NCBI RefSeq assembly: GCF_000940845.1
Contig: NZ_CP010341.1
Coordinates: 1 to 32,000, forward strand
Direction: 5' to 3'
Origin: Propionibacterium freudenreichii subsp. freudenreichii
GTDB taxonomy: Bacteria; Actinomycetota; Actinomycetes; Propionibacteriales; Propionibacteriaceae
Length of the DNA: 32,000 bases
The notes under the pieces are model-generated. The model ran no database searches and was not told the DNA's origin. It was given only the letters and a program-made list of their open reading frames with translations. The position numbers were made by a program, and so were the translations under genes. Positions 1,708 through 15,610 of the stretch are shown in pieces. How positions within the stretch are numbered: the first letter of the stretch is position 1; every line of letters begins with the position of its first letter.

Positions 1708-3151
1708 TCGCAGGCGAGATGAGGCCGCAGACGCCGACCCCCACCACGAGCACCCCCACGCACATCCACAACGCGGGCAGCAGCCCATCGACGAACGGCT
1801 GACCGGGACGATAGCTGCCGGCGCTGGTGAAGATGGCCGTGCAGACGGCGACCCCCAGCGTCACGCCCACCTGGCGCAGGGTGGAGTTCACGCCCGACGC
1901 CACTGCGTACTCGGGGCCCTGGCGACCCTGCAGCGCCGCCGTGGACAGCGGTGCGAAGCTCAGGCCCATGCCGACGCCACCGACGAACATCGGGGCGATC
2001 ACGGCGCCGTAGGTGACGCCCGGCGACAGCACGAGGGCCATCCACAGCAGCGCCACCGCCTCCAGGCCGAGTCCGATCATGAGCACCAGGCGCACGCCGA
2101 TGCGCTGCACGATCAATCCGACGATCGGCGCCATCACCATCGGCATCAGCGTCCAGGGCGCGGCGCGCCAGCCGGCACCCAGCGCCGAGTAGCCCATCGA
2201 CACCTCCAGGAACTGGCTCAGCAGGAAGATCGCGCCGAACACCCCGCCAGCGAACAGGAAGGTGGCGGCATTGGCGGCGCTGAACACCCGGTCGCGGAAC
2301 ATGGCAACCGGCAGGAAGGCCGAGCGCGCGCGACGCTCACGCATCAGGAAGCAGACGATGCACACCAGGGCCACGGCCAGTCCGAGCAGTGTGCGGGCGC
2401 TGGTCCAGCCGTGGTCGGGGGCCTCCACGATCGTCCACACGAGCATGAAGATCGACGCGATACCCAGGGCCATGCCAAGCAGGTCGATGCCCCGACGCTC
2501 CTGCGACCCACGCGCGGCGGCGGCACCCCGCAGGCTCACCAGGGCGAGCACGATGGCCACCACGCCGACGGGCACGTTGATCCAGAAGATCGCGCTCCAG
2601 TGCAGGCCCTGGATCACCGCGCCACCGACGATCGGACCCGCGGCAGTGCCGATGCCATTGACCCCGCCCCAGATGCCGATCGCCATCGGACGCTTCGCCG
2701 GCGGCACCATGTCGGCCAACAGGGCCAGCGACAGGGTGACGATCGCCGCCGCCCCGGCCCCCTCCACGGCACGCGCCGCGATGAGCATGGCCGATGAACC
2801 ACTCACCGCGGCCCAGGCGGAGGCGCCGGTGAACACGGTGATGCCGATGAGGAAGACGCGACGGCGTCCGAAGCGGTCACCCAACGCGGCCGCGGGCAAC
2901 AAGAGCGCCGCGAAAACGATCGTGTAGGCGTTCACGAACCACTGCAACTGCGTCACCGAGGCGTTCATCGCCTTCTGGATCACCGGCAACGCAAAGGTCA
3001 TCACCAGGTCGTCCAGGGCGGTCATCAGGGTGGGGAGGGCGGCGGCGATGATCACCATCGCCAGGCCGTGGCCGGCGCGCCCGCTTGGTCGGCGCGCATC
3101 GGACTCGGGTGCCTCGGGGGCGCCCGGGGACTGCCTCAGGATTATCGTCAT
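1682..3151 (-). CDS. MFS transporter, 14-TMS drug:H+ antiporter (EmrB/QacA, DHA2-like)
   Basis: 489 aa and hydrophobic throughout. MFS signature-like motifs (LGDRFGRRRVFLIG; GAGAAAIVTLSLALLADMVPPAKR). GGAG lies 8 nt upstream of ATG 3151. The 3' end overlaps the dnaA 3' end by 26 nt, convergently. Confidence 0.85.
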   Translation of the reverse strand: MTIILRQSPGAPEAPESDARRPSGRAGHGLAMVIIAAALPTLMTALDDLVMTFALPVIQKAMNASVTQLQWFVNAYTIVFAALLLPAAALGDRFGRRRVFLIGITVFTGASAWAAVSGSSAMLIAARAVEGAGAAAIVTLSLALLADMVPPAKRPMAIGIWGGVNGIGTAAGPIVGGAVIQGLHWSAIFWINVPVGVVAIVLALVSLRGAAAARGSQERRGIDLLGMALGIASIFMLVWTIVEAPDHGWTSARTLLGLAVALVCIVCFLMRERRARSAFLPVAMFRDRVFSAANAATFLFAGGVFGAIFLLSQFLEVSMGYSALGAGWRAAPWTLMPMVMAPIVGLIVQRIGVRLVLMIGLGLEAVALLWMALVLSPGVTYGAVIAPMFVGGVGMGLSFAPLSTAALQGRQGPEYAVASGVNSTLRQVGVTLGVAVCTAIFTSAGSYRPGQPFVDGLLPALWMCVGVLVVGVGVCGLISPATSGARNSA

Positions 3152-3164
3152 GTTGACTCCGTTC

Positions 3165-3216
3165 CACTAGATAGTGTTTCTATCTAACAAAACTAGATAG
3201 TATGTCTATCCAGTGG
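3165..3216. promoter_or_regulatory. Twin 19-bp palindromic operators in the divergent MFS/MerR intergenic region
   Basis: TAGATAG-TGTTT-CTATCTA (3168-3186) and TAGATAG-TATGT-CTATC (3194-3210), centres 26 bp apart. They are nested in an outer inverted repeat CCACTAGATAG...CTATCCAGTGG. The patch is AT-rich in a GC-rich genome. A candidate minus-strand promoter, TTGCAC (3225-3220) - 17 nt - TACTAT (3202-3197), overlaps palindrome 2. Confidence 0.55.
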
Positions 3217-3392
3217 CGGGTGCAAGATCGTCCCATGGCAGGCGCCGACGATGCGTTCGACACCGGGACGCCGAACCCCGGGCGCTGGGCCCCAACGCAA
3301 TGGGAACAGTGCAATGAACAACAGTGCAGCGAACAACGGGGCAACGGAGAACAGGGCGAAGGACGACAGGGACCTCAGGGAAGGGTGCATCG

Positions 3393-4010
3393 ATGCGCAT
3401 CTCGGAGCTGGCGCATGCGGCGAAGGTGCCGCTGCCAACCGTGAAGTACTACCAACGCGAGGGGCTGCTTCCCCCCGGACGGGCGGTCAACGCCCGCGAG
3501 TCGCAGTACGGCGAGGAGCACCTGTCCCGGCTGCGCGTGGTGCGCGTCCTGGTCACCGGGCTGGGCCTGACCATTGCCCAGGTGCGTCATGTGCTCGACG
3601 TGCTCGACGGCCCCCAGCGCGATCCCTACCAGGCGATGGGCGAGGCGACGAAGAACCTGCCGCTCACGGCACCGGCGTCGCAGACCAGCACCCCCGACGA
3701 TGACGTCGCCATGGTGCGCGCCCTGGGTTTCACCCACATCATCGATCCGCAGTTGGCCGGCCAGCTCGGCAATGCCCTGCGCTGGGCGGCCGAATCAGGC
3801 GTCAGCGTGACCCCGGAGCTCCTCGGCGCCTACCTGGACGCCACCCGGCAGATCGCCCGGGCCGACTTCGAGGTGATTCCCCGCACGAACTCCCGGGAGT
3901 CGGTCTCCTTCGCCGTGGTCGGCACCGTGGTGATGGAACCGGTGTTGCTCGCGCTGCGTCGACTGGCCCACGAGGAGCTTGCCCAGGAGATGGAGGACGA
4001 CGAGGGCTAG
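3393..4010 (+). CDS. MerR-family transcriptional regulator
   Basis: N-terminal MerR HTH: MRISELAHAAKVPLPTVKYYQREGLLPPGR...YGEEHLSRLRVVRVL. ATG 3393 is preceded by GGAAGGG. Divergent from the MFS gene. The stop overlaps the stop of the convergent glycosyltransferase (CTAG 4007-4010). Confidence 0.85.
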   Translation: MRISELAHAAKVPLPTVKYYQREGLLPPGRAVNARESQYGEEHLSRLRVVRVLVTGLGLTIAQVRHVLDVLDGPQRDPYQAMGEATKNLPLTAPASQTSTPDDDVAMVRALGFTHIIDPQLAGQLGNALRWAAESGVSVTPELLGAYLDATRQIARADFEVIPRTNSRESVSFAVVGTVVMEPVLLALRRLAHEELAQEMEDDEG

Positions 4011-5188
4011 CCGGGCCCGCGGCGCGACCGGCCACCCCGTGCGCGCTCGATCCCGTGCCGCTCGATGGCCTCGCGATAGCGCTCCACCAGGCTGCGGGTG
4101 GCCGCGGCCCAGTCGTGGCGCTCGGCCTCGGCCCGGGCCGCCACGGCCATGAGGGTACGCAGCCGACGCGCGGCGTCGTCGTCGCCCAGCAGGCGTCGGG
4201 CACGGTCGGCAAACCCGGCGCCGTCATGGGGCGTCACCAGAAAGCCATCGGTGCCGTCGTGGATCACATCGGGCAGCCCGCCCGCCGCGGCCGCGATCAC
4301 CGGCACGCCCGAGGCCATCGATTCCAGCGCCACCAGGCCGAGCGTCTCGGTGGTGGAGGGAAAGACGAAGGCGTCGGCGCTGGCATAGGCGGCAGCCAGC
4401 TCACTGCCCGCCAGGTAGCCGGTGAACACGGTGGGCGTACCCACGAAGGCCCGCTCCAGCTCGGCGCGGGCCGGGCCCGAACCCACCATCGCCAGGCGAT
4501 ATCCCTGCGCGCCCAGCACGCGCATCGGCTCCACCAGGTCGGCCAGGTCCTTCTCCCGACTCAGCCGCCCCACGTAGATCAGCAGCCGGGCATCGGGGTG
4601 GCCGTCGGTGAGCCGGGCGCGCATCGCGGCACTGGCCCGCCCGGGCCGGAACGTCTGCACGTCCACCGCCTTGGGCCACAGTTCCACGTGGCGCACGCCG
4701 CGACGCCGGGCCCGGCGCACCATCGTCGGCGAGGTGCACAGGTTCACCTGCGCCCGGTTGTGCAGGAACCGCGTCCACCCGACCATGGGACGCCGCGCCC
4801 ACCCGACGCCCAGCTTGCCCAGGTAGTCGGCCAGGTCGGTGTGATAGCTCGCCAACAGCGGCAGCCTGCGATGCACGGCCACCTCGACGCCGAACGCCGC
4901 CAGCGCCACGGGGTTGACCGCATGCACCACGTCGGGACGAAAGTGCACCATCTTGTCGGCGATGCTCGGTGTGGGCAGCCCCACCTTGATCTCGGGATAG
5001 ATGGGGCGCAGCGAGAAGGAGCGCACCCGCGACACCGGTTGACCCGCATGGCTGGCCGGTGGATTCCCGGGCGCGAAGACGAGCACCTCATGGCCGATCT
5101 CGCCGAGCTGCTCCAGGGTGTGGGTGAGCCGGGTGACCACCCCGTCGACCTTGGGCAGGAAGACCTCGGTGAACATGGCGACGCGCAT
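4007..5188 (-). CDS. GT4 glycosyltransferase, SQD2/SqdX-like (putative sulfoquinovosyl transferase)
   Basis: 393 aa. Matches recalled plant SQD2 block by block: SYHT...Y, FLH..A, LW.K.VD...F.P, VGR.S.EK, GP....LE..F.G.P.VFTG.L.G.EL..AYAS.D.FVFPS..ETLG.V.LE.M.SG.PV.AA.AGG.PD.I, DW.AAT. Lies 13 nt downstream of sqdB on the same strand. Confidence 0.8.
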   Translation of the reverse strand: MRVAMFTEVFLPKVDGVVTRLTHTLEQLGEIGHEVLVFAPGNPPASHAGQPVSRVRSFSLRPIYPEIKVGLPTPSIADKMVHFRPDVVHAVNPVALAAFGVEVAVHRRLPLLASYHTDLADYLGKLGVGWARRPMVGWTRFLHNRAQVNLCTSPTMVRRARRRGVRHVELWPKAVDVQTFRPGRASAAMRARLTDGHPDARLLIYVGRLSREKDLADLVEPMRVLGAQGYRLAMVGSGPARAELERAFVGTPTVFTGYLAGSELAAAYASADAFVFPSTTETLGLVALESMASGVPVIAAAAGGLPDVIHDGTDGFLVTPHDGAGFADRARRLLGDDDAARRLRTLMAVAARAEAERHDWAAATRSLVERYREAIERHGIERARGGRSRRGPG

Positions 5189-5201
5189 GGCGTCGGTTCC
5201 C

Positions 5202-6449
5202 CTAGCCCGCGTCGATCGCGGTCACCGGATCGGTCGGCAAGCCGCCGGGGGAATCCTCGCGGTATGCGGCCGGGATACCGGGCTGGCGGTCCTTCGTCCA
5301 CAGGGAGCGGGCCGGGATGTGGGCGAAGTCCACCCGGTCGCGATATTTGGCGGCGGTCTGGTTGATCTCGCCGAGCAGCCCCTGGCTCAGCGTGGTGGGA
5401 TGCAGGCCCAGGTCGAGGAATGCCTCGGCGGTGACGTGCAGTTCGTTCTCGTCGGCCTCGTTGCGCGGATCGGGCACGTTCTCCACCACGGCCCCGGTGA
5501 GGCGTGCCACCATCGCGGCCAGGTCGCGCACCCGGTGGGTCTCGGTCATCTGGTTGAAGATCTTCACCCGCACGCCGCGCTCGGGAGGGTTGGCCAGCGC
5601 CAACTCGATACAGCGGGTCATGTCCTGGATGTGGATGAACGCCCGCGTCTGACCGCCGGTGCCGTGCACGGTGAGCGGATAGCCGACCGCGGCCTGCACC
5701 AGGAAGCGGTTCAACACGGTGCCGTAGTCGCCGTCGTAATCGAAGCGGTTCACCAGCCGCTCATCGAGCTGCGTCTCGGGGGTGGACGTGCCCCAGATGA
5801 TGCCCTGGTGCAGGTCGGTGATGCGCAGCGCGTCGTTCTTCGCGTAGTAGGCGAACAGGTCCTGGTCGAGCACCTTGGTCATGTGGTAGATCGAGCCGGG
5901 GCTGGTGGGATAGAGGATCTCGCGGTGCATCTCGCCGGCCTCGCCGTTCACGGCGACGTCGAGATATCCCTCGGGGATCTTCATGCCGGCGGTGCCGTAG
6001 CCGTAGACGCCCATCGTGCCCAGGTGCACCAGGTGGATGTCCAGGCCCGATTCGACGATGGCGCACAGCACATTGTCGGTGGCGTTGACGTTGTTGTTCA
6101 CCGTGTAGCGCTTGTGGCGCGATGACTTCATGGAATAGGGCGCCGAGCGCTGTTCGGCGAAGTGCACGATGGCGTCGGGACGCAGCGTGACCAGCAGGTC
6201 GAGCAGGCGCTCGTAGTCGGTGGCGACGTCGAGCTCCACCAGGTCGAGATGGCGTCCGGTGGCCTCGGCCCAGGCAGCACGGCGCTCGGCGTTCGAGCGG
6301 ATGGGGGTCAGTGATCCGGCCCCGAGTTCCTCGTCGATGCGGCGTCGGGAGAAGTTGTCGACGATGGTCACCTCGTTGCCCAGCGCCGACAGGTGCAGGC
6401 TTGCGGGCCACCCGCAGAAGCCGTCGCCACCGAGAACCACAATCTTCAT
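5202..6449 (-). CDS. sqdB: UDP-sulfoquinovose synthase (SQD1/SqdB family SDR)
   Basis: MKIVVLGGDGFCGWP..LHLS..G.EV.IVDN.SRR.ID.ELG..SLTPI, HFAEQRSAPYSM, NNV..T.N.L.AI, LGTMG.YG, GS.YH..K, TDL.QG...G, R.DYD...GT.LNRF.VQAAVG.PLTV.G.GGQTR are nearly collinear with recalled SQD1. Start chosen at ATG 6449 (AAGGA 8 nt upstream). ATG 6458 is the alternative. The ORF-track start 6602 adds unconserved residues. Confidence 0.85.
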   Translation of the reverse strand: MKIVVLGGDGFCGWPASLHLSALGNEVTIVDNFSRRRIDEELGAGSLTPIRSNAERRAAWAEATGRHLDLVELDVATDYERLLDLLVTLRPDAIVHFAEQRSAPYSMKSSRHKRYTVNNNVNATDNVLCAIVESGLDIHLVHLGTMGVYGYGTAGMKIPEGYLDVAVNGEAGEMHREILYPTSPGSIYHMTKVLDQDLFAYYAKNDALRITDLHQGIIWGTSTPETQLDERLVNRFDYDGDYGTVLNRFLVQAAVGYPLTVHGTGGQTRAFIHIQDMTRCIELALANPPERGVRVKIFNQMTETHRVRDLAAMVARLTGAVVENVPDPRNEADENELHVTAEAFLDLGLHPTTLSQGLLGEINQTAAKYRDRVDFAHIPARSLWTKDRQPGIPAAYREDSPGGLPTDPVTAIDAG

Positions 6450-6620
6450 CTGCGTCATCCTTTGCTCACGAGGTCGGGCCCCGGGGGTGCTTCGCGTGTG
6501 AACGCCGTCGCTCACCACATTAACCAGACGGCCCTGCCACACTTCGCCCACCTGCGGCCGGCCTGACGCGAACGGACGGCCGCAGCCATCAGATTTCACC
6601 AAGTTTTCATGCGGTTCTCC

Positions 6621-6868
6621 CTGTCCGCAGACCTGTGGATAACTCGCCGTTCATGGGGAGATCATGTGGACGCCCATCCCCAACCCTCCGCCGCTGTCCA
6701 CAGGCGTCCACAGGCGCATGGCGTGTCGTCAACAGCGCATCAACAGGCAGATCGGGCCGAATCACGCCTGAAACGGCAGTTGTCCACCGGATCCACACGT
6801 GTGAAGAGGGGTACTGAATGGACATACAAAGAAGAAATTCCAAGTCTGCTGCACCCATCTGTGGACGG
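6621..6868. promoter_or_regulatory. Cluster of eight DnaA-box-like 9-mers (candidate oriC or DnaA-binding region)
   Basis: Read directly. CTGTCCGCA 6621-6629 (7/9). TGTGGATAA 6634-6642 (rc TTATCCACA, 9/9). TGTGGACGC 6665-6673 (7/9). CTGTCCACA 6694-6702 (8/9). GCGTCCACA 6704-6712 (7/9). TTGTCCACC 6780-6788 (8/9). GGATCCACA 6789-6797 (7/9). TGTGGACGG 6860-6868 (7/9). Scored against TT(A/G)TCCACA. An AT-rich tract (cagatttcaccaagttttcat, 6588-6608, 14/21 A+T) adjoins the cluster. Confidence 0.6.
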
Positions 6869-7864
6869 CCCCACGAGCCACGGGAAGACGGCTCGGCAGG
6901 GCCCCGAAGGTGCGCTAACGTGACCGTCGTGCCCCCACAAGACAGTCCACGAGCACGTCGTGCCGCAGCCGACGATCCGGGTGTATCAGACGGCGTTCCC
7001 GAAGCGACGTCCGCCGCCCTGCATGCCGACGAGCAGCCCCCGCTGGGCGAGGTCCCCGTACCGCGGGATGACAACTCGGAGATCGCTGCGTACACCAGGG
7101 ACCTGACCAAGGTCTACGGCAGCGGCGACGCCGAGGTGGTGGCGCTCGACCATGTTGACGTCGACTTCTTCAAGGCACGCTTCACCGCCGTGATGGGCCC
7201 CTCGGGGTCGGGCAAGTCAACGCTGATGCACTGCGTGGCCGGCCTGGACGCACCCACCTCAGGCGAGGTGGTGATCGGCGACACCAACATCGCCACCCTC
7301 AAGGACTCCAGGCTCACCGAACTGCGCCGTGACCGCATCGGCTTCGTGTTCCAGTCATTCAACCTGATTCCCACGCTCACCGCGCTGGAGAACATCGAGT
7401 TGCCGATGGCGATCGCCGGGCGCAAGCCCGACCCGGAATGGCTCGACCACGTGATCGACATCGTGGGGCTGCGCAGCCGCCTCAAGCACAAGCCGTCGCA
7501 GCTTTCCGGCGGCCAGCAGCAGCGCGTGGCGTGTGCCCGCGCCCTGGTGGGCAAGCCCGACATCATCTTCGCCGACGAACCCACCGGCAACCTCGACTCG
7601 GCGGCCTCCGCCGAGATCCTGGGCTTCCTGGCCTCCAGCGTCACCGACCTGGGCCAGACCATCGTGATGGTCACCCACGACCCCACCGCGGCCGCCTACG
7701 CCAATCGGGCGTTGTTCCTGGCCGACGGGCGCATCGTCGCCGACATGGACGATCCCGACCGCGACAAGGTGCTCGCCCGCATGGTCGAGCTGAGCTCCCC
7801 GGTTGACGCGTCCGCACCCGGTGCGTCGACGCAGGCTGCCGGTCCTTCGACAGTTCAGGGCTGA
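6818..7864 (+). CDS. ABC transporter ATP-binding protein (MacB/LolD/FtsE-like) with a disordered N-terminal extension
   Basis: Walker [11 protein letters not shown]-loop, signature [15 protein letters not shown], Walker [14 protein letters not shown]-loop VMVTHD. No in-frame ATG or GTG lies close to the ATPase core, so an N-terminal extension of at least 50 aa is real. Candidate starts are ATG 6818 (GAGGGG 8 nt upstream), GTG 6920 and GTG 6929. Confidence 0.88.
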
Positions 7865-7865
7865 C

Positions 7866-10424
7866 ATGTGGAAGGCGTCGTGGAAGTCCCTGATGGGACA
7901 CAAGGTCCGGCTGCTGTTGTCCGCCCTGTCGGTGGTGTTGGGCATCGCCTTCCTGTCGGGTGCGCTCACCTTCACCGGCATGCTGTCGAACACCTTCGCC
8001 GCGATCACCCAGGGCACGATCGCCGATGTGTCGGTGGGGGTGAAGGGCACCCAGAGCATTGACTCGGTGGTGACCCCGGATTACACGAAGAACCACCTGA
8101 CCAACGCCGATATCGACCGCATCCGCGGCGTGGCGGGTGTGGAGTCAGCCTCGGGGCAGATCACCCAGATGAACACGGTCTACCTGTTGGGCACCAACAA
8201 CAAGGTGGTCGGCATGGCCGGGCCACCGTCGATCGCCAGCAATTTCACCACCGAGCCGGCAATGAATCACAAGCCCGGCATCGAGGTGCGCAGCGGGCAG
8301 GCACCCACCACCGACGACGAGGTGGCGGTGGATCCCAGCTCGTTGGAGCGCAGTGGCTATCACCTCGGTGACACGGTGAAACTGCTTGCCAATGGACAGA
8401 CCATCACCAAGAAGCTGGTGGGCACGGCTGCCTGGGGTTCGGGTGGCAGTGCCGGTGCCGCCTATGTCTTCTTCGACGACGTCACCGCTTCCCAGCTGTT
8501 CATGGGTGGCGCACCGGGCTATATGCAGGCGGCCGTCACGGTGAAGGCTGGCTCCGATGTCGACGCCGTGACCAAGGCTGTCGCTGCCGCGGTGCCGGAT
8601 GGGTTCGAGGCGGTTCCGGGACATCAGGTGGCCGACCAGTTGAAGACCGCGCTCGACCAGGCGATGGACTTCGTCAACATCTTCCTGGGGGTCTTCGCGG
8701 CGATATCCCTGGTGGTGGCCTGCTTCCTCATTGTGAACACCTTCTCAATGCTGGTGGCTCAACGCAGTCGTGAGCTGGCGCTGTACCGGGCACTGGGCGC
8801 GTCCCGCGGTCAGGTGGCACGGTCGGTGATCTTCGAGGCCCTGCTGACCGGTCTGGTCGGCGGGGTCATCGGGGTTGGGCTGGGTGCCTTTCTGGCTTAT
8901 GGAATCGGAGAAGCCGTGACGGCGGCTGGCATGGATATGGTCTCTTCGGTGCCCATGCCGTCGTGGCAGAACGCATTGTTGTCGGTGGTGATCGCCGTGG
9001 TGGTCACGGTGGTCGCCGCCTGGTTCCCCTCGCGGCGCGCGAGCCGGGTGCCGCCGATCGCGGCAATGACTGGTGAGGTGACGTCGGGCGAGGGGGGTCT
9101 GGGGCGTCGCACGCTGGTCGGCACGATCATGCTGGTGGTCGGCATCGCGGGCATCTGGTCGGGTGTCACCCTGAAGGTCAGCAAGAATATGTGGCTGCTG
9201 GGTGGAGGTGCCTTCCTGGTGCTCATCGCGGTCACCTTGATGAGCCCGGTGATCGGGCGTCCGCTCATCTGGGTGATGGGACGGGCCTACCGGTTGTTGT
9301 TCGGTGAGACGGGAAAGCTTGCCGAGCTGAATGCGATCCGACTGCCCCGACGCACCGCCGCCACCGCGTCGGCGTTGATGATCGGCATCACATTGGTGTC
9401 AACCCTGTCGATCCTGGGCGCCTCCGCGAGCACATCCACCGAGCACTCCGTGCGGGACAGCCTTCGTGGCGACTTTGTCATATCGAGCCTCAATTATGGG
9501 CCGCTGCCTGCCAGCCTCTTCGACGAGGTGAAATCGACGCAGGGCGTCGCCTCGGTGCATCGGGCACGGACGGCGGCGACCACAATCAACGGCGCGCGCG
9601 CCCGGGTCATCGGCTATCCGACCAGCGATTTCAACAAGATCCAGGCGCAGTCGATGGTCACCGGCACCATGGGCGATGCGCTGGGCGAGGTGATCGTCTC
9701 GCAGGCCTACGCCGACGAGCAGAAGCTGCAGGTGGGCGGCACGCTCGAGTCGGTGGACGCCGCCACCATGGCGCCGCTGAAGCTCACCGTCACCGGCATC
9801 TTCACCACGCCCAAGGGAGGTGGCTTCGGATCGATCAACGCGAACCTTGCCACCGTGGCAGCCCTGGGCAACCGTGACCGCGACAGCCAACTGTCGGTGG
9901 ACGCCGCACCGGGCGCGTCGCACCAGTCGGTGCAGGACGCCCTCGATTCGGCCACCAGCGACAACCCGCTGATCGTGGTGCAGAACCAGCAGGAATATGC
10001 CAAGGCGCAGAGCGCCCAGATCGACCAGATGCTCACCACTGTGTACGCCCTGCTGGGGTTGGCCGTGGTGATCGCGGTGCTGGGCATCGTGAACACGCTG
10101 GCCCTGTCGGTGGTGGAACGTACCCGCGAGATCGGGTTACTGCGCGCCGTGGGCATGAAGCGTGGCCAGCTGAGGCTGATGATCACCCTGGAATCGGTGA
10201 TCATCGCCGTGCTTGGTGCCGTGCTCGGCCTGGTGATGGGCCTGGGCTTCGGCGTGGCCCTGCAGCACGTGCTGGTTGACCAGGGACTGTCGATCCTGTC
10301 GATCCCGTGGGGCCGGTTGGGAATCTTCCTGGCCGTGTCGGTGGTGGTGGGCGTGCTGGCCGCAGTGGTGCCCGCCCGACGCGCCACCAAGCTGAACATG
10401 CTCGACGCCATTTCCAGCGAATAG
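7866..10424 (+). CDS. ABC transporter permease with two FtsX/MacB-type domains
   Basis: 852 aa. Two FtsX-like modules (…IVNTFSMLVAQRSRELALYRALGASRGQV… and …IVNTLALSVVERTREIGLLRAVGMKRGQL…), each preceded by a large extracytoplasmic loop. ATG 7866 is 1 nt after the ATPase stop (TGAcATG). Confidence 0.88.
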   Translation: MWKASWKSLMGHKVRLLLSALSVVLGIAFLSGALTFTGMLSNTFAAITQGTIADVSVGVKGTQSIDSVVTPDYTKNHLTNADIDRIRGVAGVESASGQITQMNTVYLLGTNNKVVGMAGPPSIASNFTTEPAMNHKPGIEVRSGQAPTTDDEVAVDPSSLERSGYHLGDTVKLLANGQTITKKLVGTAAWGSGGSAGAAYVFFDDVTASQLFMGGAPGYMQAAVTVKAGSDVDAVTKAVAAAVPDGFEAVPGHQVADQLKTALDQAMDFVNIFLGVFAAISLVVACFLIVNTFSMLVAQRSRELALYRALGASRGQVARSVIFEALLTGLVGGVIGVGLGAFLAYGIGEAVTAAGMDMVSSVPMPSWQNALLSVVIAVVVTVVAAWFPSRRASRVPPIAAMTGEVTSGEGGLGRRTLVGTIMLVVGIAGIWSGVTLKVSKNMWLLGGGAFLVLIAVTLMSPVIGRPLIWVMGRAYRLLFGETGKLAELNAIRLPRRTAATASALMIGITLVSTLSILGASASTSTEHSVRDSLRGDFVISSLNYGPLPASLFDEVKSTQGVASVHRARTAATTINGARARVIGYPTSDFNKIQAQSMVTGTMGDALGEVIVSQAYADEQKLQVGGTLESVDAATMAPLKLTVTGIFTTPKGGGFGSINANLATVAALGNRDRDSQLSVDAAPGASHQSVQDALDSATSDNPLIVVQNQQEYAKAQSAQIDQMLTTVYALLGLAVVIAVLGIVNTLALSVVERTREIGLLRAVGMKRGQLRLMITLESVIIAVLGAVLGLVMGLGFGVALQHVLVDQGLSILSIPWGRLGIFLAVSVVVGVLAAVVPARRATKLNMLDAISSE

Positions 10425-11091
10425 GGATATTGCGACGCCGTGCTGCGATATTCCCCGGAGTTATCGCTTGCGGATATCGATTATTGGCCTCGTGGGGCCC
10501 GCCCGGTGACGAGCAGGTGAATTCCCTGCCGGACGCCCATCCCTGACGCCCAGCTCCGCGCGCCGGCGGGTGGCTCGGTGTCCCGCCCGGTGGTGCAACC
10601 CGGTGGCGCGACCCATGTCCCCTGCCGATACCCCGGATGGCATGGCACGTCGCCCGAGGCGGGGCTTCGGGGTGTGGGGGCTCGCAGGGTGGGGGCTGGC
10701 CCGTCTCGTCGGATGAACGCGCCCCGGACGGCGTCGTGGCTGGTCAGGGCCGTGTGGCCGCAACGACGGCCCTGCACGCGGTCGCGTCCCGGGCCCGATG
10801 ACGCCTGGTGAGGGACGCCATGGTCGGTGTGCTCGTCCCGGCGGTTTCCCATGCCGGCAGTCCCCCATGCCGGTGGTGAGTTCGCGGTCCTGACTGGTGG
10901 GCTGGCCGGGGCGTCCACCGGAAGTGGGCCCAACCCGGCGGAATCTGCTTTCGCGACGCTGTTGCCGCAACTATCGCGTCGACAAACCGCGCTCGTGGAT
11001 TGGCGCGACATCCGCCGACTGCGACGCCGTGATCGGCCCGTGATGGCGCGCGCTCAGTGGAATCGGGTCGCCTGGGGAAGCTGCGCACACC

Positions 11092-11335
11092 GGTGGACAA
11101 ACTGTTGATAACTTCGCTGATCGGAGCCGATGTGCGGTGTTTCCTGCTTGTCGGGCTGTGGTGTTGTGGCGGTTCGCGTGCCGGGGCGCCACCGACGGAG
11201 TGACGCTTTTCCCGCGTGAAAGTGCGATCGTTGAAGCATTTACGGCCTCGCCGGTCGGTGCCTGCGGGTGCTCCGCGGGCAGCCGATGGTTACCCAGAGA
11301 GTTATCCACAGGGCGGTGGGTTGATTGGTGGATAA
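11092..11335. promoter_or_regulatory. Four DnaA-box-like sites in the long dnaN-upstream non-coding region
   Basis: GGTGGACAA 11092-11100 (rc TTGTCCACC, 8/9). TGTTGATAA 11103-11111 (rc TTATCAACA, 8/9). TTATCCACA 11302-11310 (9/9). GGTGGATAA 11327-11335 (rc TTATCCACC, 8/9). A direct repeat GGCGGTGGGTT at 11312 and 11343 flanks the last box. Confidence 0.5.
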
Positions 11336-11835
11336 GTCGACAGGCGGTGGGTTCGGCGTCGCCAGCGCGGCGCAGGGCTTGGGGGTGACGATGCGTCACG
11401 ATCGGGCCCGCTTGTCAACCGACACGAAGGTGACCACTGCCCCCACCGTGACGGGGCCGGCACAGCACAGATCTTGCGGCCGAATGCCCCCTGTGGCGCA
11501 TGATTTCCCGGGATGGGTACGTCGCCGATCACGACGCGCCAAGGGCTCGGGGCGAGGTCGGTCTGCGATGCGCCGGTCGATCCCCCCGTCCGGTGTTGCG
11601 GCCGTGCCGTCCCATGTCGGCCGGGACGCCGCAGGGCGCCGTGGCACGCCCTCGCCGCGCCCCGCTATTGGGGCACTCCGCTGTTGGGGCTGCCACCGAA
11701 GGAACCGGTGTCCTGAGGCGGAACCCAGGTCGCCGTCGAGCCCCTGCGGCCATGACGCAGGAAATCCGTGGGTTCGCTGCCCTACGCGCTCGATTTCTTC
11801 GGCCCGGCGGCGGTCACCGCAGGCGGCGTCAGAGT

Positions 11836-11859
11836 GACGTCGGGCGGGACGTCGGGCGG
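11836..11859. repeat. Perfect 12-bp tandem duplication (GACGTCGGGCGG x2)
   Basis: Read directly at 11836-11847 and 11848-11859. Followed by GGCGGTCGG-like partial copies. Confidence 0.8.
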
Positions 11860-11917
11860 TCGGCAAGGCGGTCGGAATGGGTGAACAACGCGTGAACACA
11901 TTGCGGGGTGCTTTCAG

Positions 11918-11992
11918 GGAGCGCCATAAGGGAGCGCGATAAGGCAGCGCCATAGGTGATCTCGCAGAGATAAGGGATTGGCACAAGGGATT
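11918..11992. repeat. Three head-to-tail 13-mers plus 13-bp-spaced AAGGGATT repeats about 310 bp upstream of dnaN
   Basis: GGAGCGCCATAAG (11918-11930), GGAGCGCGATAAG (11931-11943), GCAGCGCCATAGG (11944-11956). Then ATCTC-GCA-GAGAT mini-palindrome. AAGGGATT occurs at 11972-11979 and 11985-11992. This is locally the least GC-rich part of the intergenic region. Confidence 0.7.
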
Positions 11993-12299
11993 TCGTGCCG
12001 GAACCGCTATTTTCTTCACCCGGTCCTCGTCCGCGCGGGATATCGCCGCCATCCCGCGGGATTGACGGGGCAACGCCGCGTCCACACGACCATTCCATGG
12101 GTGCATCGGCGTCCGCTCGCCGCTATTGCCGGCCGATGGGGTGCCCGCAGCTCTGTGATGTCGCGGGGTCATGCGTCAACCCTCAACCGTCACTTGCCAC
12201 CGCTGAACAGAACGTCGGAGCAGGCCGATATGATGCAAGCGCCGCGGTAGGCGGCTTGCCGAGTGGTCGAGAAAGACAGCACAACGGAGCGAGGAATCA

Positions 12300-13460
12300 G
12301 TGAAGATCACAGTCGAGCGCGATGTCATGGCGGAGGCTGTTGCCTGGGTGGCACGCAGCCTGCCCAATCGCCCGAGCGTTCCGATCCTTGCCGGCCTGCT
12401 CATGAGGGCCACGGGGAGCCAGCTCGTGCTGTCGAGCTTCGACTATGAGACCAGTGCACGCATCACCATTGACGCGCAGGTCGATGAGGAGGGCGAGGCC
12501 CTCGTCTCGGGGCGCCTGCTGTCAGAGATCGCCCGCAGCCTGCCCAATCGTCCGGCCCGCTTCACCGCCAACTCCAACCACGTGGAACTGGTGTGTGGCT
12601 CGGCCCGCTTCACCCTGCAGATGCTGCCGGTGGAGGACTACCCGCAGCTGCCCGAGATGCCCGCCGAGAGCGGCACCGTCCCCAGCGACGAGTTCACCCG
12701 TTCCGTGGCCCAGGTGGTGGTGGCCGCCGGTCGCGACGAGCTGCTGCCCGTGTTCACCGGCGTGCGCATCGAGATCAACGACGATCGCCTCTCGCTGCTG
12801 GCCACCGACCGCTACCGCATGGCGTTGAAGGAACTCACCTGGAATCCGGCCACCACGCAGGCCGAGAGCGCCGCCCTGGTGCCCGCCCGCGTGCTGTCGG
12901 AATCGGCCCGTTCCATGGGTGGTGGCGAGGCCGTTGCCCTGGCATTGTCCAATGGCATCGAGGGCGAGGGGCTCATCGGATTGTCCGGCGAGGGCGCCGG
13001 CGGACGCCGCGAACTCACCACCCGGCTGCTCGACGGCGAATTCCCCAAAGTGCGCCACCTGATGGACATCAAGCCCAATGTCACCGTGCGCGTGAAGACC
13101 GAGGAGGTGCTCGAGTCGGTCAAGCGCGTCTCCCTGGTCGCCGAGCGCAACACCTCGGTGCGCATGGTCATCGAGGACGACCGCATCGCACTCGACGCCG
13201 CCACCGGCGACCAGGCGCAGGCCACCGAGGCCATTGAGGCCCAGGTGAACAATGTGGCCGGCGGCGAGATGGCCGTATCGGCCGTGGGGTTCAACCCCCG
13301 CTACCTGACCGATGCGCTCTCGGCGCTTGATACGCCCTATGTGCAGTTCTCGTTCACGGCCCCCGGCAAGCCCTGCCTGGTGCAGGGACTGCCCGACGTC
13401 GATGGCGAGCCCGAGGCCGACTACAAGCATGTGATCATGCTGATGCGCCTGCCCGGCTGA
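12300..13460 (+). CDS. dnaN: DNA polymerase III beta sliding clamp
   Basis: 386 aa with a typical DnaN N-terminus (MKITVERDVMAEAVAWVARSLP.RPSVPILAGLLM...LVLSSFDYETSARI) and three-domain length. GTG 12300 is preceded by GGAGCGAGGAA. Position is upstream of recF. Confidence 0.92.
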   Translation: MKITVERDVMAEAVAWVARSLPNRPSVPILAGLLMRATGSQLVLSSFDYETSARITIDAQVDEEGEALVSGRLLSEIARSLPNRPARFTANSNHVELVCGSARFTLQMLPVEDYPQLPEMPAESGTVPSDEFTRSVAQVVVAAGRDELLPVFTGVRIEINDDRLSLLATDRYRMALKELTWNPATTQAESAALVPARVLSESARSMGGGEAVALALSNGIEGEGLIGLSGEGAGGRRELTTRLLDGEFPKVRHLMDIKPNVTVRVKTEEVLESVKRVSLVAERNTSVRMVIEDDRIALDAATGDQAQATEAIEAQVNNVAGGEMAVSAVGFNPRYLTDALSALDTPYVQFSFTAPGKPCLVQGLPDVDGEPEADYKHVIMLMRLPG

Positions 13461-13533
13461 CCGATCGACCGCGGAGCGGGGCTGGCCTAGGCTGGCACCG
13501 TCGCATTGATGTCGTTCGGGAGGGGTGCAGCCG

Positions 13534-14835
13534 ATGTTCGTCGAGCACCTCGAGCTGAAGGACTTTCGTTCCTACGAGGCCGCCAAGCTCGATATCGGCC
13601 CGGGTGTGTCGGTGTTCGTGGGGCCCAACGGCCACGGCAAGACCAACCTGGTGGAGGCCGTCGAATACCTGTCGACGCTGTCGAGCCACCGGGTGTCGGC
13701 CGATGCGCCATTGATCCGCGCCGGCACCAGCCAGGCGATCGTCAGGGCGCTGGTGGTGGCGGGTCGCGACGACCCCCGCAAGCTGCTGCTGGAGCTCGAG
13801 ATCAACGCCGGACGCGCCAACCATGCGCGCATCAACCGGGCGCCGGTGCGGCGGATGCGCGATTTCATCGGGGCGCTGCGCACGGTGGTGTTCAGCCCCG
13901 AGGACCTGGCGATGGTGAAGGGCGATCCCACCGACCGGCGTGCCTTCCTCGATGCCCTGGTGATCACCCGGTGGCCGCGGCTGGCCGGCGTGAAATCTGA
14001 CTACGACCGGGTGCTGCGGCAACGTAATACCCTGCTGAAGACGCTGGCGCGACGCTCGTCGCGCGTCGATGGGGGCGACGTGGCCACCCTCGACGTGTGG
14101 AACGAGCGGCTGGCCCAGTTCGGCGCTGAGCTGTTGGCGGCGCGGCTGGCAACCCTGTCCGACCTGATGCCCTATGCGCGGGCGAGCTATGCGGCGATCG
14201 CGCCGGTGAACAACCGGGTGGACGCCCGCTACAAGTCGTCGTTGGGTGGGCTGTCCGAGCTGCTGGGCTATGCCACCGACGGTGCACCCGGTGAGCTTCC
14301 GGAGGCCGCGGACACCGACGACGAAGTGCGCACCCCGGCGCCCGGGCCCGACCAGCTGGCGGTGCTCATGATGGACGCCATGGCTGCGCGGCGCGGCGAC
14401 GAACTCGCCCGCGGCGTCACCCTGGTGGGTCCCCACCGCGATGATGTGACCCTGACGATCGGCACCCTGCCGGCGAAGGGCTATGCCAGCCACGGTGAGA
14501 GCTGGTCGCTCGCCCTGGCGCTGCGGTTGGGATCACTCGACATGCTGCGCGCCGACGACGTGGAGCCGGTGCTGGTGCTCGACGATGTGTTCGCCGAGCT
14601 CGACGTGACGCGACGTGATCGCCTTGCCGACGCCGTCGCGAAGGCCGAGCAGGTGCTGGTGACTGCCGCGGTCGGCTCCGACGTGCCCGGGCAGCTGAAT
14701 GGGCAGCGCTTCGACGTCGACCTGCGCGGATCGGCGCACGCCGGGCATGAGGAGAGCGCCACCGGGCCGCGTGTTTCGATCGTGTCCCCAGCCTTGTCCA
14801 CAGGCTCTGTCCACAGGTCTGTGGACAATGACTGA
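13534..14835 (+). CDS. recF: DNA replication/repair protein RecF (with about 45-aa C-terminal read-through tail)
   Basis: MFVEHLELKDFRSYE, Walker A GPNGHGKTNL, signature-like HGESWSLALALRLGS, Walker B LVLDDVFAELD. ATG 13534 lies 8 nt after GGGAGGGG. The last ~45 codons (…RGSAHAGHEESATGPRVSIVSPALSTGSVHRSVDND) lie beyond the conserved RecF end and run through the DnaA-box trio. Confidence 0.9.
   Translation: MFVEHLELKDFRSYEAAKLDIGPGVSVFVGPNGHGKTNLVEAVEYLSTLSSHRVSADAPLIRAGTSQAIVRALVVAGRDDPRKLLLELEINAGRANHARINRAPVRRMRDFIGALRTVVFSPEDLAMVKGDPTDRRAFLDALVITRWPRLAGVKSDYDRVLRQRNTLLKTLARRSSRVDGGDVATLDVWNERLAQFGAELLAARLATLSDLMPYARASYAAIAPVNNRVDARYKSSLGGLSELLGYATDGAPGELPEAADTDDEVRTPAPGPDQLAVLMMDAMAARRGDELARGVTLVGPHRDDVTLTIGTLPAKGYASHGESWSLALALRLGSLDMLRADDVEPVLVLDDVFAELDVTRRDRLADAVAKAEQVLVTAAVGSDVPGQLNGQRFDVDLRGSAHAGHEESATGPRVSIVSPALSTGSVHRSVDND
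14794..14828. promoter_or_regulatory. Three DnaA boxes at 13-bp spacing overlapping the recF stop and dciA start
   Basis: TTGTCCACA 14794-14802 (9/9 to the actinobacterial consensus). CTGTCCACA 14807-14815 (8/9). TGTGGACAA 14820-14828 (inverted, 9/9). The last base of box 3 is the A of the dciA ATG. Confidence 0.65.
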
Positions 14836-15610
14836 GCGCGAACGGCACCCCGGTGAGGCGCCGATGCCCTGGGGCGATGGGCTGCCGCCGTGGCAGCGCG
14901 ACCAGGAAGCCCCGCCGGAGCCTCCCGATCCGACCCCGCCGGATCCGATCCTCCCCGATTCGACCGAACCCGTTTCCACAGGGCCCGATCCCGCGGAAGA
15001 TGATCCGACGAGCTCTGGCTCGTCGAACGGCGAGCGCTGGGACCCATCGGGGGGCGACCCATCGGCAGGCGGGCCGGATGAGGGGGCGGTTCCGGACGAC
15101 CACGATCCCGAGGGCTTCGAGGTGGCCACCAGCGTGGCCCACCAGCTGTCGGGGATGTTGCCCCCGGCCAGGTTGGGCCCGCGCAAGAAGGGCAGAAAGC
15201 GCCGTCGGCGTGCCCGACTGTTCGACGAGGAGCGATCCGGTGCCGGCCCCGATGTGCGCGACCCGCAGGCGGTCGGATCGGCGATGGAGAAGCTCGTCAA
15301 CGAGCGTGGCTGGCGCACCCAGTTGGGCCTGCGCCTGATCGTCGGGCGCTGGGCCGAGTTGGTGGGGCCGACGAATGCCGCCCATTCGCGTCCCGAGAGC
15401 TATCGCGACCGGGTGTTGGTGGTGCGGGCCGAGTCGAGCACCTGGGCGTCGGCATTGCGGCTGCTGGCGCCCCAGCTGGTGGCGGAGCTGAATCGTCGCC
15501 TGGGCGATGGTTCGGTGATCCGGGTGGACGTGCGTGGCCCCGCCGCGCCCAGTTGGCGCCATGGGCGTCGAACGGTGAATGGACGCGGTCCCCGCGACAC
15601 CTATGGGTGA
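14828..15610 (+). CDS. dciA: DUF721 / DciA-like protein (Rv0004-type, putative replicative-helicase operator) with a Pro/Asp-rich N-terminal half
   Basis: The C-terminal DUF721-like block (VGSAMEKLVNERGWRTQLGLRLIVGRWAELVG...HSRPESYRDRVLVVRAESSTWASALRLLAPQLVAELNRRLG.GSVIRVDV) and the conserved position after recF support the call. ATG 14828 overlaps the recF stop (ATGACTGA). Confidence 0.8.
   Translation: MTERERHPGEAPMPWGDGLPPWQRDQEAPPEPPDPTPPDPILPDSTEPVSTGPDPAEDDPTSSGSSNGERWDPSGGDPSAGGPDEGAVPDDHDPEGFEVATSVAHQLSGMLPPARLGPRKKGRKRRRRARLFDEERSGAGPDVRDPQAVGSAMEKLVNERGWRTQLGLRLIVGRWAELVGPTNAAHSRPESYRDRVLVVRAESSTWASALRLLAPQLVAELNRRLGDGSVIRVDVRGPAAPSWRHGRRTVNGRGPRDTYG

What the first reader, a model, noticed from the sequence alone, without database searches (positions are those of the whole stretch)
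14794..14830. Three consensus DnaA boxes at exact 13-bp spacing overlapping the recF stop and the dciA start codon
TTGTCCACA (14794), CTGTCCACA (14807) and inverted TGTGGACAA (14820) form the best match to the actinobacterial consensus in the whole window. The final A of box 3 is the A of the ATG of the DUF721/DciA-like gene, and the boxes are translated as a non-conserved C-terminal tail of RecF. DciA-type proteins act with DnaA in helicase loading. A DnaA-occupied site exactly at the dciA translation start suggests direct DnaA control (roadblock or promoter) of the helicase operator, or a secondary DnaA-loading site.
Basis: partly seen in the sequence, partly recalled or inferred. Interest (0 to 1): 0.62.

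Follow-up and report, generated by a model that had tools for sequence, protein, structure and literature searches.

The report
DnaA-box triad inside recF tail
Three tightly packed binding sites for the replication initiator DnaA are written into the last 14 codons of recF, just before the dciA gene of Propionibacterium freudenreichii. They have been kept since the origin of the genus and belong to a family-wide type of DnaA docking site that resembles the E. coli DARS core.

Summary
TTGTCCACA (14794, +), CTGTCCACA (14807, +) and TTGTCCACA (14820, -) are the only exact or near-exact box trio in the window. They form one of only four tight triads in the 2.65 Mb genome (0 in 20 shuffles).

The trio is homologous in four Propionibacterium species that span the deepest split of the genus, and it was lost once. 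Between the two closest species the spacers changed at 4 of 8 positions and the boxes at 1 of 27. In two species the middle box is flipped, which changes the RecF residues but keeps a DnaA box. Selection therefore acts on the DNA, not on the protein.

The same module is a convergent pair with a 4-5 bp gap plus a tandem third box. It recurs in Propionibacteriaceae upstream of dnaB, inside a tadB-like gene near the origin, and at a second P. freudenreichii locus. Its geometry matches the E. coli DARS1 core.

It is most likely a real DnaA docking site. I favour an origin-proximal role in DnaA control over specific regulation of dciA. The dciA start is ambiguous (14828 or 14864), no promoter was found, and no binding or RNA data were available.

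The parts
14782..14790 (+). weak fourth DnaA-like box GTGTCCCCA (2 mismatches), 3-bp gap before box 1
   Evidence: sequence
14794..14802 (+). DnaA box 1, TTGTCCACA (exact consensus); encodes L-S-T of the RecF tail
   Evidence: conserved in G003 and G001, GTTTCCACA in G007
14807..14815 (+). DnaA box 2, CTGTCCACA (1 mismatch at the least constrained position). It is flipped to the other strand in P. cyclohexanicum (G001) and G007
14820..14828 (-). DnaA box 3, TTGTCCACA on the minus strand (TGTGGACAA on +). Its last base is the A of ATG 14828. TGTGGACAATGAC is invariant in all four trio-bearing genomes
14808..14827 (.). convergent pair / palindrome TGTCCACAG-GT-CTGTGGACA (boxes 2 and 3, 4-bp gap). 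As RNA, box 1 can also pair with box 3
13525..14835 (+). recF (SMC_N/AAA). The last ~35 codons are a genus-specific tail. The last 14 codons (ALSTGSVHRSVDND) carry the trio and use five rare codons
14828..15610 (+). dciA (PF05258), 260-aa reading from the ATG that overlaps box 3. The ATG is conserved as ATGAC in four species and overlaps the recF stop by 8 nt
14864..15610 (+). alternative dciA reading (248 aa), the start most often annotated in public records. The trio would then lie 36-70 nt upstream of the start codon
   Evidence: sequence
14852..14858 (+). GGTGAGG, a Shine-Dalgarno-like sequence 5 nt before ATG 14864
   Evidence: read (inference)

Best explanation
The trio is a selectively maintained, high-affinity docking site for about three DnaA molecules. 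Boxes 2 and 3 form a convergent (head-to-head) pair with a 4-bp gap. Box 1 lies in tandem (head-to-tail) with box 2, and a weak fourth box sits upstream.

The site is written into the dispensable C-terminal tail codons of recF, 14.8 kb from dnaA and 8 kb from the nearest origin-like box cluster. It is one copy of a module type that Propionibacteriaceae place at a few sites per genome.

I think its main job is centred on DnaA rather than on the neighbouring gene. It would hold DnaA close to the origin and possibly change its nucleotide state, so tuning initiation. This is how the oriC-proximal DnaA-box clusters of Bacillus and Streptomyces work, and perhaps E. coli DARS.

When occupied, the complex covers the recF stop and the dciA start, so a damping effect on dciA expression is a likely by-product.

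Shown: the sequence, its rarity, its conservation at the DNA level, and its recurrence and geometry. Inferred: DnaA occupancy and every functional consequence.
For: 1. Rarity. The trio is one of four tight triads in 2.65 Mb, against 0 in 20 shuffles. There are only 20 exact boxes genome-wide.

2. Homology and age. The trio is present at the same junction in G000, G003, G001 (P. cyclohexanicum) and G007. The RecF tree places these as (G000,G003),((G001,G007),(four genomes without it)). This implies ancestral presence and one loss.

3. Selection at the DNA level.
- Between G000 and G003 the boxes differ at 1 of 27 positions and the spacers at 4 of 8 (hypergeometric p about 0.006, my arithmetic).
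- The middle box is inverted in G001 and G007. This turns SVHR into TVDE/AVDQ but keeps a DnaA box.
- Five of the 14 tail codons have relative usage of 0.09 or less.
- Strain variants of P. freudenreichii are identical across the region.

4. The module type is under selection in the family.
- The triad pattern is found in 66 of 151 genomes, about 90 hits against 2 for the reversed control.
- Exact convergent 8-mer pairs occur at 72 loci against 0 for the control. Thirty-six have a 5-bp gap, 8 a 4-bp gap and 10 a 6-bp gap.
- Divergent pairs prefer about 10 bp instead.

5. Independence from the neighbouring gene and proximity to the origin.
- The same module lies in frame inside a tadB-like gene in many genera. 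It sits 21-140 kb from dnaA in the genomes where this could be measured.
- It is intact in G004 and G005, 30-40 kb from recF, and these genomes lack the recF trio.
- It is eroded in P. freudenreichii, whose tad locus lies 290 kb from dnaA.

6. Geometry. The E. coli DARS1 core reads (+)5(-)3(-) (PMC6868365). The G001 and G007 trios and the second P. freudenreichii locus at 283,950 have exactly this geometry. The window trio has 4/4 with the same 35-bp span.

7. Precedent.
- Mycobacterial DnaA binds only five regions. One is a palindrome of two boxes about 13 kb from dnaA whose flanking genes do not respond to dnaA mutations (PMC7738170).
- oriC-proximal DnaA-box clusters restrain initiation in B. 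subtilis and are reported for Streptomyces (PMC3245932).
Against: - No binding, expression or replication data exist for this site.
- The origin-proximity argument rests on few independent lineages. G007 has both a recF trio and a tadB cluster. G002 and G006 have neither, though both keep a convergent pair upstream of dnaN.
- Two of the four P. freudenreichii triads lie 183-284 kb from dnaA.
- Box 3 keeps a fixed register with the conserved ATGAC of dciA in all four species. DnaA boxes at dnaB are family-wide. Both fit a helicase-system regulon equally well.
- The E. coli DnaA residue needed for DARS action (Gln208) aligns with Asn293 here.
- Three boxes can titrate only a few DnaA molecules.
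Confidence: 0.45

Rival explanations
1. The trio is an operator for dciA. DnaA bound at the trio acts as a roadblock to RNA polymerase reading through from dnaN-recF. Alternatively it occludes a weak internal promoter or the start region. Either way the supply of the helicase operator DciA, and of DnaB through the boxes at its promoter, would follow DnaA occupancy.
For: - The trio ends exactly at the conserved ATGAC of dciA in four species. If the start is ATG 14864, it lies 36-70 nt upstream.
- A convergent box pair lies 6 nt before a -35-like TTGCxx-N17-TAnCGT upstream of dnaB in G000, G001, G003 and G007. All 30 of 30 family genomes have a box there, against about 0.1 expected per 700 bp.
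- DnaA binds upstream of dnaB in M. tuberculosis and M. smegmatis, and a dnaA mutant with weaker binding under-expresses dnaB (PMC7738170).
- The tadB-embedded clusters also sit near a gene's 5' end inside an operon.
- From my own knowledge: DnaA-box complexes can stop transcribing RNA polymerase in E. coli (asnC; Schaefer and Messer 1988).
Against: - No promoter-like or terminator-like site was found in 14600-15000.
- Four genus members and 22 other relatives run recF-dciA without any box.
- The same module occurs at unrelated genes and in an intergenic repeat region with no nearby gene start.
- The dciA start is ambiguous.
Confidence: 0.27
2. The trio acts as an RNA or DNA hairpin rather than a protein site. 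The inverted repeat would form a stable stem-loop at the 3' end of the recF message. That stem-loop could work as a U-less attenuator, an RNA stabiliser, or a structure that masks the dciA start.
For: - RNA 14770-14880 folds at -51 kcal/mol. Box 1 pairs with box 3 and the stem ends at AUG 14828. The z-score is -2.5, and 2 of 200 shuffles fold as well.
- Every trio-bearing genome keeps some hairpin potential.
Against: - Conservation is of the exact DnaA consensus letters, with no compensatory changes.
- The hairpin partners differ between clades: boxes 2/3 in G000 and G003, boxes 1/2 in G001 and G007.
- The same 9-mers occur at dnaB promoters and in origin regions.
- There is no T-run and no Rfam match.
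- Any convergent box pair is self-complementary by construction.
Confidence: 0.07
3. The trio is a relic with no present function. It could be a leftover of an ancestral origin-flanking box cluster, or of a duplicated module, that drifted into the recF tail and persists by chance or because overlapping reading frames constrain it.
For: - It was lost without replacement at this site in one clade.
- Sister modules in tadB erode in several species.
- The overlap of the recF tail with the dciA start adds coding constraint.
Against: - Substitutions fall 4 of 8 in the spacers against 1 of 27 in the boxes between the closest pair.
- The middle box is retained despite inversion.
- Rare codons are tolerated.
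- The DNA downstream of ATGAC and upstream of box 1 is poorly conserved in the same alignment.
Confidence: 0.1
4. The trio is part of the replication origin itself, either a second half of a bipartite oriC or a secondary DnaA and helicase loading site.
For: - It is close to the origin region. The cumulative GC-skew minimum lies near dnaA.
- The canonical dnaA-dnaN spacer is disrupted by 10.6 kb of inserted genes.
- Box clusters elsewhere in the window are sparse.
Against: - The trio lies wholly within coding DNA of about 70% G+C.
- There is no A/T-rich unwinding element and there are only 3-4 boxes.
- It is absent in half of the genus.
- An identical module type occurs far from origins.
Confidence: 0.03

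Closest known systems
E. coli DARS1/DARS2 core (DnaA-reactivating sequences; Fujimitsu 2009; Sugiyama 2019, PMC6868365)
   Same: - It has three 9-mer DnaA boxes.
- One box is convergent with its neighbour across a 5-bp gap, and the other two are tandem with a 3-bp gap. This was read directly from MG1655: TTATCCACT-attcc-TGTGGATAA-cca-TGTGTATTA.
- The P. cyclohexanicum and G007 recF trios and the P. freudenreichii locus at 283,950 have exactly this 5/3 geometry. The window trio has the same 35-bp span.
- There are few copies per genome.
   Different: - The window copy has 4/4 gaps, with the middle box on the other strand.
- It lies inside coding DNA, whereas DARS is intergenic.
- E. coli DnaA Gln208, which is needed for DARS action, aligns with Asn here.
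- No ADP-release activity has been shown.
- DARS has not, to my knowledge, been described outside enterobacterial relatives.
oriC-proximal DnaA-box clusters (DBCs) of Bacillus subtilis and Streptomyces coelicolor (Okumura 2012, PMC3245932; Smulczyk-Krawczyszyn 2006, cited there)
   Same: - These are non-origin clusters of consensus boxes close to oriC.
- They bind DnaA stably and restrain initiation in a dosage- and position-dependent way.
- Their neighbouring genes differ between species.
   Different: - The B. subtilis DBCs are intergenic and larger.
- The trio is minimal (3-4 boxes), intragenic and of fixed geometry.
Rv0010c-Rv0011c cryptic DnaA site of Mycobacterium tuberculosis (Hicks 2020, PMC7738170)
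   Same: - It is actinobacterial.
- It is a palindrome made of two DnaA-box-like sequences, roughly 13 kb from dnaA.
- It is one of only five strongly bound regions, alongside oriC, rpmH-dnaA and the region upstream of dnaB.
- The flanking genes do not respond to dnaA mutations, and the authors suggest titration or nucleotide exchange.
   Different: - It is intergenic and has different flanking genes.
- I could not compare its exact spacing.
- Binding is experimentally shown there and not here.
DnaA as a transcription factor at double DnaA boxes (E. coli ChIP-seq, Stringer 2024, PMC11317965) and at dnaB promoters (Mycobacterium, Caulobacter)
   Same: - DnaA needs at least two closely spaced boxes for stable binding.
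- Its regulon centres on replication genes.
- An intragenic bound region exists within E. coli dnaN.
   Different: - The E. coli double boxes are tandem with 2-3 bp gaps.
- Here the defining pair is convergent with a 4-5 bp gap.
- No promoter was detected at the trio.

Membership tests
Non-origin DnaA-box cluster (DBC) | Several consensus or near-consensus DnaA boxes packed within a short stretch, beyond chance | tested here: met
   Boxes with 0, 1 and 0 mismatches lie within 35 bp. There are four such triads in the genome and 0 in 20 shuffles.
Non-origin DnaA-box cluster (DBC) | Location near oriC but outside it | tested here: met
   The trio is 14.8 kb from dnaA and 8 kb from the 6.6-6.8 kb box cluster. 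The skew minimum lies near dnaA, and the trio is inside recF coding DNA.
Non-origin DnaA-box cluster (DBC) | Stable DnaA binding in vivo and an effect on initiation frequency | not testable with these tools
   This needs ChIP/IDAP-seq and ori/ter measurements.
DARS (DnaA-reactivating sequence) | Core of three boxes: I and II convergent with a 5-bp gap, II and III tandem with a 3-bp gap | tested here: inconclusive
   The window trio is (+)4(+)4(-) with the same total span. The orthologous trios of G001 and G007 and the locus at 283,950 have the exact 5/3 geometry.
DARS (DnaA-reactivating sequence) | DnaA Gln208 (E. coli numbering) at the head-to-head interface | tested here: not met
   Gln208 aligns with Asn293 of the P. 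freudenreichii DnaA. The substitution is an amide and so conservative, but the residue is not identical.
DARS (DnaA-reactivating sequence) | Promotes ADP release from ADP-DnaA | not testable with these tools
   This needs a biochemical assay.
DnaA-controlled promoter/operator | Boxes overlap or adjoin recognisable -35/-10 elements or a mapped transcription start | tested here: not met
   No promoter-like site was found in 14600-15000. By contrast the dnaB copy lies 6 nt from a -35-like hexamer.
oriC | Intergenic region with many boxes and an A/T-rich unwinding element | tested here: not met
   The trio lies in coding DNA of about 70% G+C, has 3-4 boxes and has no A/T-rich stretch.
Intrinsic terminator | G+C-rich hairpin followed by a T-run | tested here: not met
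   A hairpin is present, but there is no T-run and the scan gave no hit.
DciA (PF05258) downstream gene | Match to the Pfam DciA domain above the gathering score | tested here: met
   E = 4.5e-23, 81.7 bits against a cut-off of 24.

The most novel reading that the evidence does not exclude
Propionibacteriaceae, and perhaps Actinobacteria more widely, may possess DARS-like DnaA-recharging elements. These would be a fixed three-box module (convergent pair with a 4-5 bp gap plus a tandem box at 3-4 bp) kept near the origin and tolerated inside coding sequences such as the recF tail and a tadB loop. Different species would carry it in different host genes. The recF-dciA trio would then be the P. 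freudenreichii copy that replaced an eroded tadB copy after the tad locus moved away from the origin.
Probability: 0.15. Interest if true: 0.85.

Novelty: new variant of a known kind. Interest (0 to 1): 0.58.

Why it matters
How bacteria without Hda/SeqA-type systems keep DnaA in check is an open question. This applies above all to Actinobacteria. In M. tuberculosis a cryptic palindromic DnaA site near the origin even affects drug susceptibility (PMC7738170).

This finding offers a small, sharply defined DNA module with fixed geometry. It is conserved at the DNA level although it sits inside genes, and it occurs in a food-grade, genetically tractable organism. It makes three ideas directly testable:
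- Head-to-head DnaA dimers on a pair with a 5-bp gap are a general binding mode shared with E. coli DARS.
- Such sites act by position near the origin rather than through their neighbouring gene.
- Expression of the helicase (dnaB) and its operator (dciA) is wired to DnaA.

It also shows that coding sequence can carry regulatory DnaA sites. Origin and regulon predictors that scan only intergenic DNA will miss them.

Tried and rejected
- **Chance:** rejected.
- **Protein-level constraint on the RecF tail:** rejected. The middle box flips strand and changes the residues, rare codons are used, and the tail is absent outside the genus.
- **A wider occurrence of the recF-dciA trio:** not found.
  - No box with up to 2 mismatches occurs in the four other genus genomes.
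  - None occurs in 22 family or order relatives, apart from one single 1-mismatch box.
  - A scan of 185,579 species genomes for TCCACA-N17-TGTGGACAATGAC returned only Propionibacterium, plus about 6 hits. About 4 are expected by chance.
- **Promoter/terminator scan:** nothing.
- **Rfam:** nothing.
- **Plasmid similarity:** nothing.
- **Strict complementarity between the tadB cluster and the recF trio:** not met. G007 has both, and G002 and G006 have neither.
- **Extended motif beyond the 9-mer** (TTGTCCACAGG in the window): not conserved in relatives.
- **Homology of the 284-kb locus to other loci:** none by blastn or tblastx.
- **Literature:** no paper describing DnaA boxes at recF-dciA, or DARS in Actinobacteria, was found.
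Full report
**Setting**

The window is the first 32 kb of a single-contig 2.65 Mb genome with 67% G+C. Public records of the same DciA protein name the organism as Propionibacterium freudenreichii.

The gene order is:
- dnaA (to 1707)
- six unrelated genes
- a 1.9 kb non-coding tract
- dnaN (12300-13460)
- recF (13525-14835)
- a PF05258/DciA gene
- an SLH-domain gene
- gyrB and gyrA

The cumulative GC-skew minimum lies next to dnaA.

**Observation**

They are 13 bp apart start to start.

They are the only exact matches in the window. The window as a whole has 13 matches with up to one mismatch, against 5.2 expected.

In the whole genome there are only 20 exact boxes. Only four tight triads exist, and none was found in 20 triplet-shuffled genomes. 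A weak fourth box (GTGTCCCCA, 14782) precedes box 1.

The recF stop (14833-14835) and an in-frame ATG (14828) overlap box 3 or lie just beyond it.

The statement that the trio overlaps the dciA start needs a caveat. Public annotations use three starts. The most common is ATG 14864 (248 aa), which has a good GGTGAGG Shine-Dalgarno sequence. ATG 14828 (260 aa) and GTG 14771 (279 aa) are also on record. ATGAC at box 3 is nevertheless conserved in all four species that carry the trio.

**Conservation**

I fetched the recF locus from 39 relatives and scanned the junction. The trio is present in four of eight genomes of the genus:

| Genome | Box 1 | Box 2 | Box 3 | Gaps |
|---|---|---|---|---|
| G000 (this genome) | TTGTCCACA (+) | CTGTCCACA (+) | TTGTCCACA (-) | 4/4 |
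| G003 (a MAG) | TTGTCCACA (+) | ATGTCCACA (+) | TTGTCCACA (-) | 4/4 |
| G001 (P. cyclohexanicum, named) | TTGTCCACA (+) | TCGTCCACA (-) | TTGTCCACA (-) | 5/3 |
| G007 (a MAG) | GTTTCCACA (+) | TGATCCACA (-) | TTGTCCACA (-) | 5/3 |

The other four genus genomes have no box with up to two mismatches in their longer, acidic RecF tails. Twenty-two genomes of other genera and families have none either.

A scan of one genome per species for 185,579 species found the outer-box signature only in Propionibacterium, apart from about the number of hits expected by chance.

A RecF tree gives (G000,G003),((G001,G007),(G004,G005,G002,G006)) with 93-100% support. The trio was therefore present in the ancestor of the genus and lost once. 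This rests on a single-gene tree.

**Selection acts on the DNA**

- Between G000 and G003 the 27 box positions differ once and the 8 spacer positions differ four times (p about 0.006 by my hypergeometric arithmetic).
- TGTGGACAATGAC is invariant in all four genomes, while the DNA on either side aligns poorly.
- The middle box lies on opposite strands in the two clades. This changes the RecF residues from SVHR to TVDE/AVDQ but preserves a DnaA box.
- Five of the 14 tail codons (TTG, ACA, TCT twice, AGG) have a relative usage of 0.09 or less in this genome.
- RecF proteins outside the genus end about 35 residues earlier, so the tail is not needed for RecF function.

**A family-wide module**

Searching the genus for the convergent pair showed it in every genome, against 0-1 hits for a reversed control. 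The contexts recur.

*Upstream of dnaB.* All 30 of 30 family genomes have at least one box (up to one mismatch) within 700 bp upstream, where about 0.1 is expected. Sixteen have a convergent pair at 14-15 bp start to start. In G000, G001, G003 and G007 the pair ends 6 nt before a -35-like TTGCxx-N17-TAnCGT (the promoter is inferred). This matches the experimental finding that mycobacterial DnaA binds upstream of dnaB (PMC7738170).

*Inside a tadB-like gene.* The triad pattern TCCACA-N4-5-TGTGGA-N6-7-TGTGGA occurs in 66 of 151 family genomes, about 90 hits against 2 control hits. Many copies lie in frame inside the tadB-like gene that follows a cpaF-like ATPase gene. There they encode ..LSTGxSTxLWTRVD.. 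just after the first membrane helix.

*A second locus in P. freudenreichii.* At 283,950-283,984 the genome reads TTGTCCACC-gcc-TTGTCCACA-ggatc-TGTGGACAA, in a repeat-rich intergenic region.

*Spacing preference.* Exact convergent 8-mer pairs across 151 genomes number 72 against 0 for the control. The preferred gap is sharp: 36 at 5 bp, 8 at 4 bp and 10 at 6 bp (my count). Divergent pairs number 31 and prefer about 10 bp.

**Geometry compared with DARS**

I read the E. coli DARS1 core from MG1655: TTATCCACT-attcc-TGTGGATAA-cca-TGTGTATTA. That is (+)5(-)3(-), in line with the description of a 5-bp gap between the oppositely oriented boxes I and II (PMC6868365).

The G001 and G007 recF trios have exactly this geometry. 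So does the 283,950 locus when read on the other strand. The window trio and G003 have 4/4 gaps with the same 35-bp span. Most tadB copies have 4/3.

The resemblance is structural only. E. coli DnaA Gln208, which is needed for DARS action, aligns with Asn293 here, and no biochemistry is available.

**Position**

In genomes where both could be placed, the tadB cluster lies close to dnaA:
- 28-41 kb in genus g29
- 89-139 kb in genus g9
- 21-25 kb in one genome of genus g30 (G112)

In G004 and G005 it is intact, 30-40 kb from recF. These genomes lack the recF trio.

In P. freudenreichii the tad locus lies 290 kb from dnaA and its cluster is gone, while the recF trio is kept.

The pattern is suggestive, not strict. 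G007 has both, and G002 and G006 have neither, though they keep a pair upstream of dnaN.

**Interpretation**

That DnaA binds here is an inference, but a strong one (I put it near 0.85). The letters are the actinobacterial consensus, the conservation follows the boxes, and the same module sits at origins and at dnaB promoters.

What binding achieves is open. I favour a DnaA-centred, origin-proximal role (0.45). The module is portable between unrelated host genes, is few in number, tends to lie near the origin, and has known counterparts:
- B. subtilis and Streptomyces DnaA-box clusters (PMC3245932)
- the Rv0010c-Rv0011c palindrome of M. tuberculosis
- E. coli DARS

A three-protomer complex sitting on the recF stop and dciA start would plausibly hinder read-through or coupled translation. 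The dnaB boxes make a helicase-system regulon attractive. Against it:
- No promoter or terminator was found.
- Half of the genus and all other relatives examined lack the site.
- The start codon is uncertain.

The remaining readings are less likely:
- An RNA hairpin role is possible (delta G -51 kcal/mol, z -2.5). It does not explain why the consensus letters themselves are conserved, and Rfam has no match.
- A relic.
- Part of oriC.

**Limits**

- Most relatives are draft assemblies.
- Relatives are not independent samples.
- The gap counts are my own tallies of the listed matches.

Noticed in passing
G000:C1:283950-283984 (L031:4951-4985), outside the window: A second triad, TTGTCCACC-gcc-TTGTCCACA-ggatc-TGTGGACAA, has the exact 3/5 geometry of the E. 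coli DARS core, with two more TGCACA-type boxes just upstream. It is intergenic, between an ETF-QO-like FAD oxidoreductase gene and a ResIII/DEAD helicase gene. It is followed by 18-bp tandem repeats and four ~70-nt palindromic REP-like elements.
   Followed up: partly
G000:C1:2465650-2465880 (L109:2150-2380), outside the window: An intergenic cluster of at least seven DnaA-like boxes (TTATCCACA-ggg-TTATCCCCA-ca-TGTGGATTA, then TGTGGATCA, TGTGGACAA, TGTGGAAAC and TGTGCACA motifs) lies next to an A/T-richer stretch. It sits between an FGGY kinase gene and a radical-SAM/SPASM gene, 183 kb from dnaA. It could be a datA-like reservoir. It is not the skew minimum.
   Followed up: partly
G000:C1:2239640-2239750 (L044:1140-1250) and dnaB loci L047-L076: DnaA boxes upstream of dnaB are conserved in all 30 of 30 Propionibacteriaceae genomes examined. 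Sixteen have a convergent pair with a 5-bp gap. In the genus the pair ends 6 nt before a -35-like TTGCxx-N17-TAnCGT. The divergent neighbour is a CsoR-like repressor gene.
   Followed up: partly
tadB-like genes, e.g. L095:1490-1540, L079, L099, L033, L124: An in-frame DnaA-box tetrad inside the tadB-like gene, downstream of a cpaF-like ATPase gene, encodes ..LSTGxSTxLWTRVD... It is present in many genera, 21-140 kb from dnaA where this could be measured. It is intact in G004, G005 and G007, and eroded in G001, G002, G006 and P. freudenreichii.
   Followed up: partly
family genomes, e.g. G121:C4:282157, G105:C23:20660, G127:C1:1017434: Divergent box pairs with an A/T-rich spacer (TGTGGACAA-cttttttg-TTGTCCACA) recur in two genera at a fixed 8-bp gap between 9-mers. 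Their genomic context was not examined.
   Followed up: no
window 1708-12299: dnaA and dnaN are separated by 10.6 kb: an MFS transporter, a MerR regulator, a GT4 glycosyltransferase, an epimerase, an ABC ATPase, an FtsX-type permease and a 1.9 kb non-coding tract. The only other box cluster in the window is at 6634-6788. This agrees with earlier notes of this scan.
   Followed up: partly
G000:C1:91260-91297 (L108:1761-1798): Three same-strand boxes (TGGGGAGAA-ccgg-TGTGGACAA-ccagttg-TGTGGATCA) lie in or beside a DUF4395 gene, 91 kb from dnaA.
   Followed up: no
window 14850-14876: A second small predicted RNA hairpin (CCCCGG...CUGGGG) encloses the GGTGAGG Shine-Dalgarno sequence and AUG 14864 of the commonly annotated dciA start.
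   Followed up: no
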